Part shown: positions 24,850 through 30,533 of the stretch, in pieces
Position numbering within the stretch: the first letter of the stretch is position 1
Layout: each line of letters starts with the position of its first letter
Assembly (NCBI GenBank): GCA_051530055.1
Contig: CM121341.1
Location: 9,650,784-9,714,783 of the forward strand
Source: Neoechinorhynchus agilis
Lineage: Eukaryota > Animalia > Acanthocephala
Direction: 5' to 3'
DNA: 64,000 nt
Program-made: the position numbers and the translations under genes
Notes under the pieces: generated by a model
What the model was told of the DNA's origin: nothing
Database searches by the model: none
What the model saw: the letters and a program-made list of their open reading frames with translations, nothing else

Positions 24850-25600
24850 TAAACATTATTATTGTGATTTGAGTTTTGAAAACTATTTACAATCTACGAC
24901 CGTCATTATCATGAAATAAAAAGACATCAGGTGTAGCATGTGAACATAGGTTGTGCACGTGTGTTGTTTTGGTGTGTGTGTTGCGTCGAATGAAACATGA
25001 CATCTGGTGACAGCGATGGACAGATTTGGAAAATACTGGAGCAACAAGCGAAGATGATCGAGATGTTGACGAACAGACAGATCAAATATGAAGAGGATCA
25101 GGAAGCGCGAAATAGATCAATGATTTCTGCGACGGAGGTAGCGAAAGTTAACATCACGCCGTTTCGCCAGTATGTGGAGCAGGACGAAAAATGGAAAGAT
25201 TACACACTTCAGTTGGAACAACATTTCGAGTGGTGCCAAGTAAAGGAGTCAGCTTGTAAAAAGTCATGCCTGCTGTCGTGGATCGGTGCAAAACCGTTCC
25301 GCCAATTGACGAAAGCCCTAACAAGAGACAAATTGAAGGATGTGTCCTACGAGCAGGTAGTAGAGGCTATGGGGAAGCTAGTGGGAGCAGTCGAACATGA
25401 AGTAACGGCTAGATTTAAATTCGGTATGATAAAGATGAAAGAAGATCAAACGTATGCGGAATGGATCGCAGAGTTAAAAGGTGCAGGCGAAAATTGTAAA
25501 TTCTATAAAGAAGAAACAAAAACGGAGGCTGATGCTTTATCCGAACGGATGCGCGATCATGTAGTGCTAAACACGCCGTTTCGATCGAAAGTCTATTTTC
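24850..25600 (+). mobile_element. Ty3/gypsy LTR retrotransposon 5' end: LTR remnant, PBS and gag N-terminus; pol and 3' LTR absent
   Basis: CA end at 25001-02, then PBS-like TGGTGACAGCG (25005-15). gag-like WKDYTLQLEQHFE...LLSWIG...EHEVTARFKF...Q.EDQTYAEWIAELK...C.F...MRDHVV. The LTR start is approximate. Confidence 0.8.
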
Positions 25601-28600
25601 GCAATTCCGGTCAAGTTTTAAAAGAACTGACCTCAATCAGTATCTGGATTTGACAGCTCCGATGAGCCAGAGCAATGTTGCTGTAGTTGCTGTCACTACA
25701 GTTGTGAATCTAATAGATAGTGACTCGAATCCAATTCATAACATCGGTCAGTGGAAAACGGAAAGTCCAATAAGATATGAACTACCTTATCGAATGGAAC
25801 GAGATATCTTCGGGGTACTTGTTAGTACCATATTACGGCTATTTGATGTATCACCGGTCAATGAATTGAATAAACTGCATTATCAAGCAAAGGAAACATG
25901 TATACAGATTGATGGTCCAAATCATGCGAATCCATGTCAATCCAATCTATGTAGCATTGGAGACGTGGTGAGGTTAACTTCGGTTAACTAGTCAACCTAC
26001 ACCGATATAAAAAGGATCACGGAGCGTTTAGAATGTAAGATGGCAAAAGCCATAATCGAAACTACCTCCCGAGCAACTCCCTATCTCTTGGCGGTGATTA
26101 GTTCATCTTCTAGAAAGCCATATCTTGAATCCTTTAAGATATCACATTCAGATGAATCAAACCAACTCAACGCAACATAGTGAGACAATGAAAACGCATG
26201 TTAGTGAACTTGAGCGGTTGATCAGTACTGGCGTTTTCATTCCGATTGAGCAAGTTGGGAATCGCTTTACGCTCGGCTATACGCCGGTGTATGGCGTCCC
26301 CATCCGCTCTAGTCGGGAAGTTGATTGCTGTACTGTTAGCTTGCCTCCCAGTGTGAGTGTACAAAATAGTGAGTGTGTGAAAAGTGGTATTTCGCTGTCG
26401 GGAAAGCCTTTACCCCCCAAGGCCCCGTGTGCGAATAGACCCATCGGGTATATGCGTGAAGCTCCAAATCCGACTCTTGAGCTCCGCAATGCAGGTGGTT
26501 TTTCAAAAGATCGGCTCGTATCTCAACTTATCGCAAAGTACGAACCGCGAGGTGGTCGGGGTGTGTCTATGGACGCTTCTAGCGCCGCGTGTATAAATGA
26601 GATGAAGGAGACACCCGCCACCCAGGCGACGCTGAAGGCAGAGACCACTGCCGAGCGTGGGCCACAATCTTCATCTCAGGCGACGTATACGGCAGATACC
26701 ACTGCCGTGCGTGAGCCGCACTATTCAGTTTCCGCTGCGGTTGCGAACCCAAGTACTGGTAATTGTAATATAGCGTCTGCCGTGCTTGCACCAACTCCTA
26801 GCGAGAGGCAACTACTTCATTACCGCAGACCTTTGTTGCCGGGTCTTCTGTGTCCGAGGCCGTCGTGCCACTCTCTACCGGTGATCCTGCTAACTGGAAA
26901 ACTCTTGGTATCTGTCGTTTGGCTACTGGTCATTTAAAAGATCTGGTTGGATTTGCTTTAGCAGTATTTTCCCGTCGTCCGGACGAACTTTTCCAGGCTA
27001 CCTGCTCCTTGCACGGAACTGCTTCTAGACAAACGGGGGTTTTGAATTAGCAGCTGTACCTCTCGATACGCCCCATAACGAGCAGAAGATATTCTTAGAT
27101 GCATTCCTCGCATTCTACAAGGACATCGCGCAGCCATGCTGCTTAAAGCCAGAACAAATCAGTGATTACGAGGTGGACCTTCCTTCTGGAACAACGCTCA
27201 GTCCTTCCGATTATTATGCCGTCTACGTTAACCACCAACGTAAGACCTGCGCGAACTGTCGGAAGAAAATTGCGTTAGCGGCATCTTCGAAAAAGAATAT
27301 CCACGCCTGGGCCCATTACTTGTTTAATCGGGCTTTTCTAAACCTAGACATGAATAATGAACTCTCGATTCGAGAAATCTTTGAAACTACCAAATCATAT
27401 CATACTATCAAGATAAAAAGGGATTCATCCAATCTTCTCCTAATCCGCTCTCTTTTTGCCGTTCAACTTTTTAGACTCAAACTTCTGTCGGACTGCGAAC
27501 TCGAAAAAGGCGCGCTTGTCACTGCGTTTTCATGCCCACCTTCGATGCCCTACCAACTACACACGCTCGTGTCGAGATGATGACAAGAACTTTGCTCACT
27601 AGAAGTAGAGCAGCTCTAGCTTCCGCCTTCCCGGGCTGTGTCCAGTCAGCCATTGGGCCGCAGCTCTCGACTCCTCTTATGGACCAAAAGAAACAAGTTG
27701 ACACCGTTCTGGTTAGGCCTTCAGAAGACATTAGTTTTAGCCGTTCTGCTCAGCCCGAAGAAACTTTAGTGCCGCAGGGTGAGCTCTCCGCTATCGCTCG
27801 GATTCTCGAAGCTTCCCCAGCTGATCTGCTACACAGTGCTAATCCTACGAAAACACGGGCTAAACTTCGAGCAACCATCGAGAAAGTCTTGGCTAAGAAG
27901 AGGATCGATTTCAAAGAGCTTCTGTCACAAAATAAGAAACAAGTGGAGTCAACACGAGAGGCTCTAGTCAAACGTCCACGTGATCCCGTCCTTCTGAAGA
28001 TTCTAGATGATTTGAGGGAAGCACAACTTAAGATTGATTCGAGCCTTACATTGATAGAAAAGGTTGTGGAGGAAATTCAGGCTTTGGCATATCTAGATGA
28101 TCTCCCAATCATGACTACATACTGTGACGACCTGGATCTGGATTCTTTGCCTAGTAGTCCTGTCGACTTAGGAACTGCTTTTCTAGCTTACATAAGCAGG
28201 GCTAGGGCTACTCTAGGTCAGATGGAATACGTCCGAGTGGACAAAAGAGAGAAACGCGATGGCTATAAGAAGTTCAACACTTTCGTCCCCACTGATAAGA
28301 ATGGATCCTTTACTCGGGATATGGAGGCCGCCATACGAAACTTTAAGCATGAAAGTGCGTTCGTTGGGGCTACGACCATAACCGAAAAATCTGAGGGAAT
28401 TGATCACAAAATCCGTAATGACGTTCGAGTTCGTGCCCACTTCCTTCTCAACAAGATTGGCACCTCGAAGAAGCGTCTTATGGGTCTTTGCTTCGCCCAC
28501 AGAAATAACCAGCCTATGTTGCGTGCTCTAGCGCACGGACTCAACTCTCGTAATCAACGCTTGTGTGCTGCATTCTGCAAAGAGTTAGATACCCTGAACG

Positions 28601-30533
28601 GCCAGAGCGAATTGATTGAAAATCTAGAATGGCGCGCCTCTAGGCGCATTGCTCTACTTTCGTCGCTTAGAAATGGACATTTCAGGCAATTCTACACGTC
28701 AGGTTGGCTTTCGTCGGATGATATCATCCATAGAGCTGGAAACGGTGTGAGCACTTTTACTAGTTCTTACATCTCCTCCGTTCTGGCTGGTGGTGATGGC
28801 TACGCTAAGAGGCTTGCTGACGAGTGGAACCGCCTTATGCACGCTATCAACGGCAATCCTGTTTCCGGGCCCTATGTCCCAATTGGATATCAGATGACTG
28901 TCGAATCTGTGCAATCGTCTAGCCATGTCTTCAAAGTCACCACTGCATTGGCCGGGAACTATTCCCTCTTTCGCACTTTACCTACCACCAAATTGGGTAT
29001 CATTGCTGCTCAAGAACCCAGATTCCTTCATACGATAGGTCTTACCTGTATGGATGATGACGCCTTTCTTAGTGATACTGCCAAGAAGATAGCAGAGAAC
29101 AATATTTCCTTTTATAAGGATAAAGATCAGGAAGAGAGGCAAACCCTAGACTACTATCTCGGAGTTTTGCCCCACCTGGCTGAATGCTACGGGCCTCTTT
29201 GCTTCTCCTTGGGGCTTTCCTACTCTACTTCTGGTGTGATTGGTGCTGAACACAATGAGCTGTGGCGTGAACAAGAAACCGTTCTAAGAGCTGGTACCAA
29301 CTGCGACGCTAACGTGCTCTACACTCTATCACCGCAACCTATGAATCCTCCGGCTACAGTCTCAAGCGGTCCGTGTCATGACAGAATATTCAGTTTAATC
29401 TTGTCCGACGATTTGGATACTTCGGCACGAATGGACTTTACTCGTCTTCTGAATACCGTCAGTCACTTAGCGCCCATGCTTCGTCGCCGAAACGAGAAAA
29501 TGGCCTATTTGACACTGTGTAGATCTTCGGCTCTCGATCATTATCGTGATGGATCCCCTGCTACATTTGCTCGAATGCGAGCCATCTTATCCACTGATAA
29601 TTACCCGGAAGTAACTGCCCCACCTCCTAACGGGAACACGCGTTTAGATGGTACTATCACTCGCATGTGGGTATGCCAGCCATTTGAGGTGGTGTGGTTG
29701 CGTATGTCCGTAGTTGAGTTTTTTAAGAGTGTGGCGGTTAACAATCTCTTATGGAATGAAGGACCTGACGTCCACAGCTCTGCGTTTGACGGCCGGACTC
29801 TCGCCCTTATGGAACAATACTTCCCGGCCCCGGCGGAACAACTCTTTCGATTTGGTTGCTACTGTTTGGAATCCGGTTCTTACCGATGAAATTTACATGA
29901 ATGTTTCTGGAACAGAAGAACATTACTTCACTTTGATGGACGTCTTCGCTAAACAACCAGGGAAAATATTCATCGTGGTGACTGTCACTCTAGAGGAAAT
30001 AGAGACTCGGGTTCAGAGGTTCTACTATCCGCGCTCCAACGGACTGGACCCCTTTCCTTACGATAGTCTAGGTTTATCAATTTTCTCAACGACTCGCCAA
30101 ACGATGGGACTTCGTCCCAACCTTCTCTGGAACCATCCCTCGCGAAATTATTTCGAAGATTGAAAGCTATCTCAAAGTATGGAATCTCTCGGCTAGTGTT
30201 AGACAACTCTATTCCTTTCTCCTTCCATACTACCTTTCTGATGAATTCACTTATTCTGACTTTTGGCTGCTTGATGCGAGTGGTTGTCCCTCAGCTCTAA
30301 ATAATCTCTGTTGGCATATTGAATGTCCGAGTTGCAACTTGCTTTCTATTAGACATTAGAAGCAGGACATTATATCGGAGCTGGGCAGACATTACTCTGA
30401 GTCAAATAGTGACATCACCAGCTGGATCAATATCATTGCTAAGAAGAAACTTACGGCACAGGAATTTTTTCAACTTCTACATCCTCTTGTTTCCGAAATC
30501 CAGATGGAAGGGGTGCTCAGATCTGACTACTGA
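25600..30533 (+). pseudogene. Very long intronless orphan ORF (~1,600 codons) broken by scattered frameshifts and stops; probably virus-derived
   Basis: Consecutive plus-strand open frames 25650-26180, 26125-26850, 26850-27040, 27030-27580, 27532-29889, 29880-30163 and 30162-30533 abut with 1-2 nt shifts. GC is higher than the flanking host DNA. It sits between gag and a viral replicase. No family recognised. Confidence 0.55.

What the first reader, a model, noticed from the sequence alone, without database searches (positions are those of the whole stretch)
25600..30533. ~1,600-codon orphan protein hidden behind frameshifts
The ORF track shows separate pieces, but they chain through 1-2 nt shifts (for example the G-run at 27035-39 and GAT-T-GAA at 30158-64) and single stops (25989, 30357) into one coding unit ending VLRSDY*. 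It has a Thr/Ala-rich repeat (~26630-26740), a CxxC (CANC), a coiled-coil-like stretch (27850-28090) and a C-terminal CWHIECPSC. I see no convincing RdRp, helicase, protease or 2A motif.
Basis: partly seen in the sequence, partly recalled or inferred. Interest (0 to 1): 0.75.

Follow-up and report, generated by a model that had tools for sequence, protein, structure and literature searches.

The report
Worm-genome fossil of toti-like virus capsid
The stretch is not one orphan gene: its core is a broken, shortened chromosomal copy of the first gene of an undescribed double-stranded RNA virus, likely its capsid precursor, wedged among pieces of other RNA viruses behind a retrotransposon fragment in what is likely a thorny-headed worm's genome.

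Summary
Partly confirmed, now identified. Only 26152-30094 (about 1,300 codons, four frame breaks) is one coding unit. It is homologous to 23 gene models named Neoechinorhynchus agilis and, outside that species, to ORF1 of Schistocephalus solidus toti-like viruses 3 and 1 (E 1.4e-7 and 6.5e-4 among 1.84 billion proteins; HHalign 98%, 578 columns). It carries NRLMHAINGN (28828-28857), matching the NKxMHxxNGN motif after which Omono River virus and IMNV release their major capsid protein. So it is most likely a capsid-polyprotein endogenous viral element that keeps about 412 of 785 capsid residues. Two breaks are absent from most reads (likely assembly errors); two are real. The flanks are other genes: a glycoprotein-like gene split by the insertion, an unassigned piece with the CWHIECPSC motif, then nodavirus protein A, all behind a truncated Ty3/gypsy-like gag. 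Runs guessed to be RNA cover the part from 27475 on, and in three of four the contig starts right after a splice-acceptor-like site; co-option is possible but unshown. Folding failed. New member of a known kind.

The parts
24994..25578 (+). 5' piece of a multicopy Ty3/gypsy-type gag, cut off at 25578
   Evidence: Depth 20-50 times that of the viral pieces in DNA run X1; 95 X8 reads leave the window at 25578. Pfam PNMA E 0.025, weak; gag label otherwise recalled from sequence pattern.
25578..26151 (+). Piece B: middle of a viral glycoprotein-like gene (rhabdovirus G-like, inferred), one stop at 25989; not part of the orphan
   Evidence: Pfam Rhabdo_glycop_CD E 0.025, below cut-off; no PDB hit; an X1 contig joins 26151 to 30528 through a short spacer; other copies carry other sequence before 25578.
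26152..30094 (+). Toti-like virus ORF1 (likely capsid polyprotein) endogenous element, 3'-truncated; breaks near 27.03 and 27.53 kb real, near 26.80 and 29.85 kb not seen in most reads
   Evidence: left edge from reads with other sequence before 26152 (10 X6 reads, one X1 contig).
26613..26740 (+). Imperfect 54-nt (18-residue) duplication, Thr/Ala-rich, inside ORF1
   Evidence: similar doublet in P0008.
27248..27316 (+). C-x2-C-x14-H-x3-H motif, predicted zinc site
   Evidence: Kept in P0008-P0011 and, with other spacing, in SsTV3 ORF1; N-terminal profile match to SsTV is weak, E 0.39.
27468..27475 (+). Splice-acceptor-like T-run plus AG; contigs of RNA-guess runs X2, X3, X4 begin at 27475 with two letters that do not match the window
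   Evidence: X5's contig runs through this site.
27532..29889 (+). Longest open frame as assembled (785 aa, P0001); starts at the first ATG after 27475; in the animal it probably runs past the 29.85-kb break to about 30.16 kb
   Evidence: read check.
28828..28857 (+). NRLMHAINGN, predicted polyprotein cleavage motif; capsid protein would begin at 28858
28858..30094 (+). N-terminal ~412 residues of the predicted major capsid protein (778-785 residues in full-length paralogs)
30093..30530 (+). Piece C: separate, unassigned gene fragment with CWHIECPSC and a stop at 30357
   Evidence: 66-67% identical to P0012/P0033 residues 21-166; P0033's locus tag neighbours that of ORF1 paralog P0002; no match to the RdRps tested.
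30529..31000 (+). Piece D: likely C-terminal part of the glycoprotein-like gene, with a transmembrane stretch at 30895-30951; right edge approximate
   Evidence: Hydropathy 2.65 over 19 residues; X1 joint to piece B, in frame by counting; Pfam Baculo_F E 0.14, weak.
31000..34070 (+). Nodavirus-like protein A (capping enzyme plus RdRp), broken near 32.05 kb at a short tandem repeat; left edge approximate
   Evidence: Pfam Noda_Vmethyltr E 2.7e-48, RdRP_3 E 3.7e-7; tandem repeat.
34172..34840 (+). Piece E: 222-codon open frame, unassigned
   Evidence: No Pfam or PDB hit.

Best explanation
The core (26152-30094) is a broken, 3'-truncated chromosomal copy of ORF1 of an undescribed toti-like dsRNA virus related to the tapeworm viruses SsTV1 and SsTV3, likely its capsid polyprotein, likely captured as cDNA by a Ty3/gypsy retrotransposon together with pieces of other RNA viruses. 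In the parent virus the roughly 1,680-residue product would be cut after the last Asn of NRLMHAINGN into an N-terminal part of about 895 residues (low-complexity start, predicted zinc site, coiled coil) and a major capsid protein of about 785 residues that would build a T=1 shell of 60 dimers, as in Omono River virus (inferred). Shown: homology, the motif, integration in DNA, truncation, the mosaic. Inferred: capsid role, cleavage, capture by reverse-transcriptase template switching. The ORF1+C block likely entered an already captured glycoprotein-like gene, since another copy has B joined to D. Today the copy cannot make a particle protein of full length; it is likely a transcribed relic whose only likely role is as RNA (small-RNA template against the cognate virus), untested.
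For: Profile of six N. agilis-type sequences against 1.84 billion proteins: 23 hits, 20 named N. agilis, 2 SsTV ORF1s, 1 unnamed Logan protein. HHalign to SsTV3/1 ORF1: 98.2%, E 5.8e-14, 578 collinear columns on both sides of the motif. Tiled length 1,681 versus 1,624 and 1,696 and 1,685 for Omono River virus ORF1. Omono River virus ORF1 is the top PDB hit of two family profiles, on the motif (E 0.099, 0.064); PMC7968656 (passages) states that IMNV and OmRV capsid N-termini arise by cleavage after NKxMHxxNGN. Strict N..MH..NGN is present in 8 of 10 family members spanning the site, near-matches in the other 2; chance about 3e-6 per ORF of this length. The same genome holds a toti-type RdRp (P0029, RdRP_4 E 1.1e-8), and 3 gene models (P0006, P0007, P0011) join ORF1 and P0029-type pieces. 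DNA reads of WGS and Hi-C runs cover all 30 bins. Gag junction and B-D joint.
Against: No structural proof of the capsid role: both AlphaFold models were unusable (mean pLDDT 30 and 42) and Foldseek gave no match at E<=0.001. The PDB match is below significance, covers only the motif, and came only from profiles that included the SsTV sequences; the N. agilis-only profile gave 0 hits. SsTV ORF1s are themselves annotated hypothetical. No RdRp of this lineage lies in the window, and the ORF1-RdRp link rests on predicted gene models. No 2A core or dsRNA-binding domain was found, unlike artiviruses. The capture route and a small-RNA role were not tested.
Confidence: 0.85

Rival explanations
1. Same viral origin, but the part from 27475 on has been co-opted as a host gene: a spliced or trans-spliced mRNA starts translation at 27532, bypasses both real breaks and yields an 800-900-residue protein that would cut itself into a ~440-residue coiled-coil part and a half capsid, acting for example as a dominant-negative decoy.
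For: RNA-guess runs X2-X5 cover about 27475-30290 at depth 6-19 against mostly 0-8 upstream and about 0 over the nodavirus piece, which DNA runs cover evenly. Three of four begin at the base after the acceptor-like site with two foreign letters. The first ATG downstream opens the long frame. Listed read-supported length variants: 3 frame-breaking and 1 in-frame upstream of 27532, 0 and 2 downstream (P about 0.04, post hoc). Models P0015 and P0017 start at the equivalent Met.
Against: The runs are only guessed to be RNA, contigs show neither strand nor start, and X5 reads through the site. Synonymous excess among 29 listed variants is the same upstream (9 of 15) as downstream (9 of 14; 5 of 10 without one four-site cluster, P 0.13), so it likely reflects divergence among viral copies (52 rows were not shown). 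Near-identical second copies and alternative junctions point to a young, polymorphic locus. The capsid part is cut in half and ends in out-of-frame sequence.
Confidence: 0.15
2. The element is a toti-like ORF1, but ORF1 of this clade is not a capsid precursor (for example a nucleoprotein-like protein of a capsidless virus) and the NGN motif has another use.
For: No fold or significant sequence match to any solved capsid; Atlas features gave no usable hit for SsTV1 residues 990-1640.
Against: Motif, its position and ORF length match OmRV/IMNV; the part after the motif is conserved with SsTV over about 450 residues; PMC7305300 passages describe two-ORF genomes with RdRp second.
Confidence: 0.08
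3. The stretch is RNA of a live virus or a chimera that slipped into the assembly.
For: The assembly has at least two likely base errors here; gag/B junction is bridged by under 31 letters on one side in the contigs listed.
Against: Two genomic DNA runs kept as raw reads cover the whole stretch; contigs of X1, X2, X3, X4 bridge B/ORF1, ORF1/C or C/D; real frameshifts and truncation; 23 further copies on contigs of 8 different lengths.
Confidence: 0.02
4. One cellular orphan protein of about 1,600 codons from 25600 to 30533.
For: The frames can be chained by eye; all pieces look coding.
Against: Flanks have different homologues and different neighbours in other copies; the core is viral.
Confidence: 0.01

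Closest known systems
Schistocephalus solidus toti-like viruses 1 and 3, ORF1 (QJD26155.1, QJD26159.1; PMC7305300, passages read)
   Same: Collinear homology over 578 profile columns, length 1,620-1,700, CxxC region, coiled coil, N..MH..NGN motif, host a fish helminth.
   Different: Only about 22% identity; SsTVs are exogenous and vertically transmitted, this is integrated, broken and truncated; host is likely an acanthocephalan; 785 versus about 707 residues after the motif.
Omono River virus and IMNV ORF1 polyprotein (artiviruses; PMC7968656, passages read)
   Same: ORF1 length about 1,685; NKxMHxxNGN motif ahead of the major capsid protein (here R for K).
   Different: No 2A core and no dsRNA-binding domain found; no alignment beyond the motif; one motif copy rather than two; predicted capsid about 110 residues shorter.
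Toti-like endogenous viral elements of planthoppers (PMC10636211, abstract and passages) and of Trichinella (PMC13483474, passages)
   Same: Many polymorphic capsid and RdRp fragments in an invertebrate genome, some transcribed; one planthopper element was co-opted, most give piRNAs.
   Different: Other virus lineages and hosts; here the element sits in a mosaic of at least three virus types directly behind a gag fragment; piRNA or protein not tested here.
Mononegavirales RdRp-like elements of Pomphorhynchus laevis (PMC12548735, passages)
   Same: Shows that an acanthocephalan assembly holds many RNA-virus sequences.
   Different: Negative-strand RdRps on unplaced contigs; no Ghabrivirales or Neoechinorhynchus mention in that text (0 occurrences).

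Membership tests
ORF1 of SsTV1/SsTV3-like toti-like viruses (Ghabrivirales) | Sequence homology to ORF1 over most of its length | tested here: met
   E 1.4e-7 and 6.5e-4; HHalign 98.2%, 578 columns; N-terminal third only weakly, E 0.39.
ORF1 of SsTV1/SsTV3-like toti-like viruses (Ghabrivirales) | Followed by ORF2 with an RdRP_4-type polymerase | tested here: inconclusive
   Absent from the window; P0029 elsewhere in the genome passes RdRP_4 and 3 gene models join ORF1 to its pieces. Its relation to the SsTV polymerases was not tested; they were not among the 4 hits.
Toti-like capsid polyprotein | NKxMHxxNGN cleavage motif ahead of a 700-900-residue C-terminal protein | tested here: met
   NRLMHAINGN at 28828; 778-785 residues follow in the 3 full-length paralogs; motif defined.
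Toti-like capsid polyprotein | Totivirus capsid fold | tested here: inconclusive
   Models unusable; Foldseek empty.
Toti-like capsid polyprotein | Cleavage after the motif and T=1 particle formation | not testable with these tools
   Needs particle proteomics.
Artiviridae (OmRV, IMNV type) | 2A-like motifs and dsRNA-binding protein upstream of the capsid (as described in PMC7968656) | tested here: not met
   No NPGP in the window frames or in any stored protein; no dsRNA-binding Pfam family in window pieces or paralogs. Not filed as an artivirus.
Artiviridae (OmRV, IMNV type) | RdRp phylogeny | not tested
   No named reference polymerases were retrievable.
Non-retroviral endogenous viral element | Present in host chromosomal DNA | tested here: met
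   WGS and Hi-C raw reads over all bins; flanked by retroelements and host-type genes.
Non-retroviral endogenous viral element | Partial and decayed relative to the virus gene | tested here: met
   About 375 residues missing at the end, 2 read-supported frame breaks.
Non-retroviral endogenous viral element | Adjacent to LTR-retrotransposon sequence | tested here: met
   Multicopy gag-like piece cut at 25578; family label weakly supported.
piRNA-producing viral element cluster | 24-30-nt small RNAs from the locus | not testable with these tools
   No small-RNA run was offered.
Co-opted viral gene | Fixed, translated, under purifying selection after integration | tested here: inconclusive
   apparent transcription and no frame-breaking variant downstream of 27532, but no selective synonymous excess.

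The most novel reading that the evidence does not exclude
The worm splices a leader onto the middle of a dead dsRNA-virus gene, skipping both real frameshifts, and makes a self-cleaving half-capsid protein that jams assembly of a still-circulating, undescribed acanthocephalan toti-like virus: a domesticated antiviral gene born inside a retrotransposon-built array of three or more RNA viruses.
Probability: 0.12. Interest if true: 0.72.

Novelty: new member of a known kind. Interest (0 to 1): 0.42.

Why it matters
It turns 24 'hypothetical' worm gene models into the record of an undescribed dsRNA virus lineage, sister to tapeworm viruses, in a phylum for which my paper searches found only negative-strand RdRp elements. 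It extends the OmRV/IMNV capsid-release motif to the SsTV1/3 clade, whose ORF1 is unannotated (not found in print by searches), and so predicts where their capsid starts. The locus is a compact example of toti-, noda- and likely rhabdo-type fragments stacked behind one gag, with an alternative copy that shows the order of insertion. If the spliced transcript is translated, it would be a candidate domesticated antiviral gene; if not, it is an ordinary though informative fossil.

Tried and rejected
No whole genome was held, so paralog DNA, dN/dS and genome-wide context could not be had. Pfam and PDB sequence searches with the single ORF: nothing. AlphaFold twice (pLDDT 30, 42) and Foldseek on the better model against BFVD and PDB: no meaningful match; VIA-align was not run because the models were unusable. 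ESM Atlas answered only for SsTV1 ORF1, with no usable hit. IMG/VR scans with ORF1 profile and P0012: none; with RdRp P0030: 2 partial RdRp contigs without upstream ORF. Metagenome scan with the piece-C alignment: none. Idea that piece C is the N-terminus of this virus's RdRp: P0033 neighbours an ORF1 copy by locus tag and its later part resembles a polymerase motif by recall, but BLAST and HHalign against P0029/P0030 gave nothing, nor against SsTV ORF1; left unassigned. Programmed frameshift at the G-run: rejected because paralog models read through in one frame, though these are predictions. BicD hits of the SsTV profile taken as generic coiled-coil matches. No RNA holder on record was listed; X2-X5 are only guessed to be RNA. 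Earlier scan notes: none. Paper search on spliced leaders in acanthocephalans returned one rotifer paper, listing only. PMC9241645 and PMC12779748 (passages) gave no usable family definition. No supplements were opened; those of PMC7305300, PMC9241645 and PMC12690905 might annotate SsTV ORF1 or these gene models.
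Full report
Setting. The window is eukaryotic, rich in retroelements, with a few host-type genes. The 785-residue frame at 27532-29889 found 10 relatives, all named Neoechinorhynchus agilis hypothetical proteins; four of them share the longest-contig length of the window's own protein. The host is therefore very likely this acanthocephalan. No whole genome was available.

What is one unit. tblastn of those 10 proteins on the window gave a continuous chain from 26173 to 30094 with frame changes near 26.80, 27.03, 27.53 and 29.85 kb, and nothing outside. Three paralogs continue about 375 residues past the point where the window stops matching, so this copy is cut short. Tiling P0008 and P0002 gives about 1,681 residues for the parent.

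Are the breaks real. Seven runs were laid in two calls (29: X8, X1, X2, X3; 57: X6, X2, X4, X5). The break near 29.85 kb is absent from 4 of 4 and 11 of 12 raw DNA reads and from contigs of five runs. The break near 26.80 kb is absent from 10 of 15 and 6 of 8 reads. These two are likely assembly errors, the second possibly an allele. The breaks near 27.03 and 27.53 kb are crossed without gaps and are real. A second, about 99% identical copy or haplotype with its own indels exists (X1, X5, part of X6).

What the core is. A profile of six family sequences (A2) scored against 1.84 billion representatives gave 23 hits at E<=0.001: 20 N. agilis models, one unnamed Logan protein, and two proteins named ORF1 of Schistocephalus solidus toti-like virus 3 (E 1.4e-7) and 1 (E 6.5e-4). 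HHalign of A2 with the two viral ORF1s gave 98.2%, E 5.8e-14 over 578 collinear columns; the N-terminal third matched only at E 0.39, though at the CxxC. Passages of PMC7305300 describe these viruses as two-ORF dsRNA viruses of a tapeworm, vertically transmitted, with RdRp in ORF2. The worm genome also holds a matching kind of polymerase: P0029 passes Pfam RdRP_4, and models P0006, P0007 and P0011 join ORF1 pieces to P0029-type pieces.

Why capsid. Two family profiles that included the SsTV sequences returned Omono River virus ORF1 as top PDB hit, below significance (E 0.099, 0.064), on the motif at its residues 774-790; the worm-only profile returned nothing. PMC7968656 states that OmRV and IMNV capsid N-termini are made by cleavage after NKxMHxxNGN (passages). 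The window has NRLMHAINGN at 28828-28857, the only H..NGN in its six frames. The strict pattern is in 8 of 10 family members that span the site, including both SsTVs, with near-matches in the other two; chance expectation is about 3e-6. Full-length paralogs have 778-785 residues after it, SsTVs 706-709. The window keeps about 412. No 2A core or dsRNA-binding domain was found, so it works like an artivirus ORF1 but is not filed as one. Structure gave no help: pLDDT 30 and 42, no Foldseek match. The capsid role is therefore inferred from motif, position and length.

The flanks. Reads show sharp edges at 25578 and 26152. Left of 25578 lies a high-copy gag-like piece that continues differently in its other copies. 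Piece B (25578-26151) has a weak rhabdovirus glycoprotein hit (E 0.025). One X1 contig joins 26151 to 30528 through a short spacer, only 30 letters on the short side, in frame by counting, linking B to piece D, which ends in a transmembrane stretch. B and D are thus likely one glycoprotein gene into which the ORF1+C block was inserted; D could instead be the N-terminus of the nodavirus protein that follows in the same frame. Piece C (30093-30530), with CWHIECPSC, is 66% identical to the start of P0012/P0033 and stays unassigned. Beyond D lies a nodavirus-like protein A and an unassigned frame, then the end of a LINE-like repeat also found at 56172-56697.

How it arose. The direct gag-to-virus junction and the stack of unrelated RNA-virus pieces fit capture by an LTR-retrotransposon reverse transcriptase switching templates, a route recalled from mosquito and Drosophila work and not tested here. 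The 23 other models, 26-92% identical to the window where they align and on contigs of 8 different lengths, imply repeated capture from a diverse virus population and later copying.

Is it used. X2-X5 are only guessed to be RNA, but they leave the nodavirus piece almost empty while DNA runs cover it evenly, and they cover about 27475-30290 best. In X2, X3 and X4 the contig starts at 27475, the base after a T-run plus AG, with two foreign letters; X5 reads through. No DNA loose end was listed at that site (some rows hidden). The next ATG opens the long frame. Frame-breaking variants were listed only upstream of it (3 versus 0, P about 0.04, post hoc), but synonymous excess is equal on both sides (9 of 15, 9 of 14, from the rows shown). 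This keeps co-option open at about 0.15; an RNA-level or no role is more likely, as for most planthopper elements (PMC10636211, abstract and passages).

Verdict. Observation partly confirmed; not an orphan. An endogenous toti-like virus ORF1, likely capsid polyprotein, in a multi-virus mosaic. New member of a known kind; interest 0.42. Searches found no paper describing these elements or the motif in SsTV; the library lacks most subscription papers and no supplements were read.

Noticed in passing
window 31000-34070: Near-complete nodavirus-like protein A gene (capping domain and RdRp), broken once at a short tandem repeat; covered by DNA runs but almost not by the RNA-guess runs X2 and X3.
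   Followed up: partly
window 25578-26151 and 30529-31000: Likely one rhabdovirus-type glycoprotein gene split by the insertion; other copies extend at least 970 bases further upstream of 25578 (X1 contig).
   Followed up: partly
window 30093-30530; P0012, P0033: Unassigned gene with a CWHIECPxC motif, in two further copies on the contig that also carries ORF1 copies; its later part resembles the start of a dsRNA-virus polymerase by recall only, tests negative.
   Followed up: partly
window 34172-34840: 222-codon open frame with no Pfam or PDB hit, probably another viral fragment; X1 and X8 show a form skipping 34108-34536.
   Followed up: partly
window 27475: Three RNA-guess runs start at the same base after an acceptor-like site with two foreign letters; could point to spliced-leader trans-splicing in acanthocephalans, for which my one search found no paper.
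   Followed up: partly
P0025, P0027: SsTV3 and SsTV1 ORF1 carry N..MH..NGN ending at residues 915 and 990, predicting capsid proteins of 709 and 706 residues; SsTV1 also has a C2H2 zinc-finger-like stretch at 170-192 (Pfam E 0.004).
   Followed up: partly
P0028, P0030 (Logan), L001, L002: Unnamed relatives: a 419-residue capsid-like fragment and RdRps about 41% (P0030 to P0029) and 32-35% (L001, L002 to P0030) identical, suggesting living relatives of this virus in public runs.
   Followed up: no
window 14062-15728: Kinase gene resembling vaccinia-related kinases (label recalled), in several exons.
   Followed up: no
window 45192-48650: Membrane transporter gene of MFS type (label recalled), in pieces.
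   Followed up: no
window 35227-37736 and 53093-56245: Two related non-LTR retroelement copies in opposite orientation; further decayed LINE-type elements at 16.2-22.9 kb, 38-39.4 kb and 49-53 kb.
   Followed up: no
window 59570-64000: 136-bp tandem array, 33 copies, grown out of the end of a retroelement-like frame; other satellites at 1-997 and 12184-13251.
   Followed up: no
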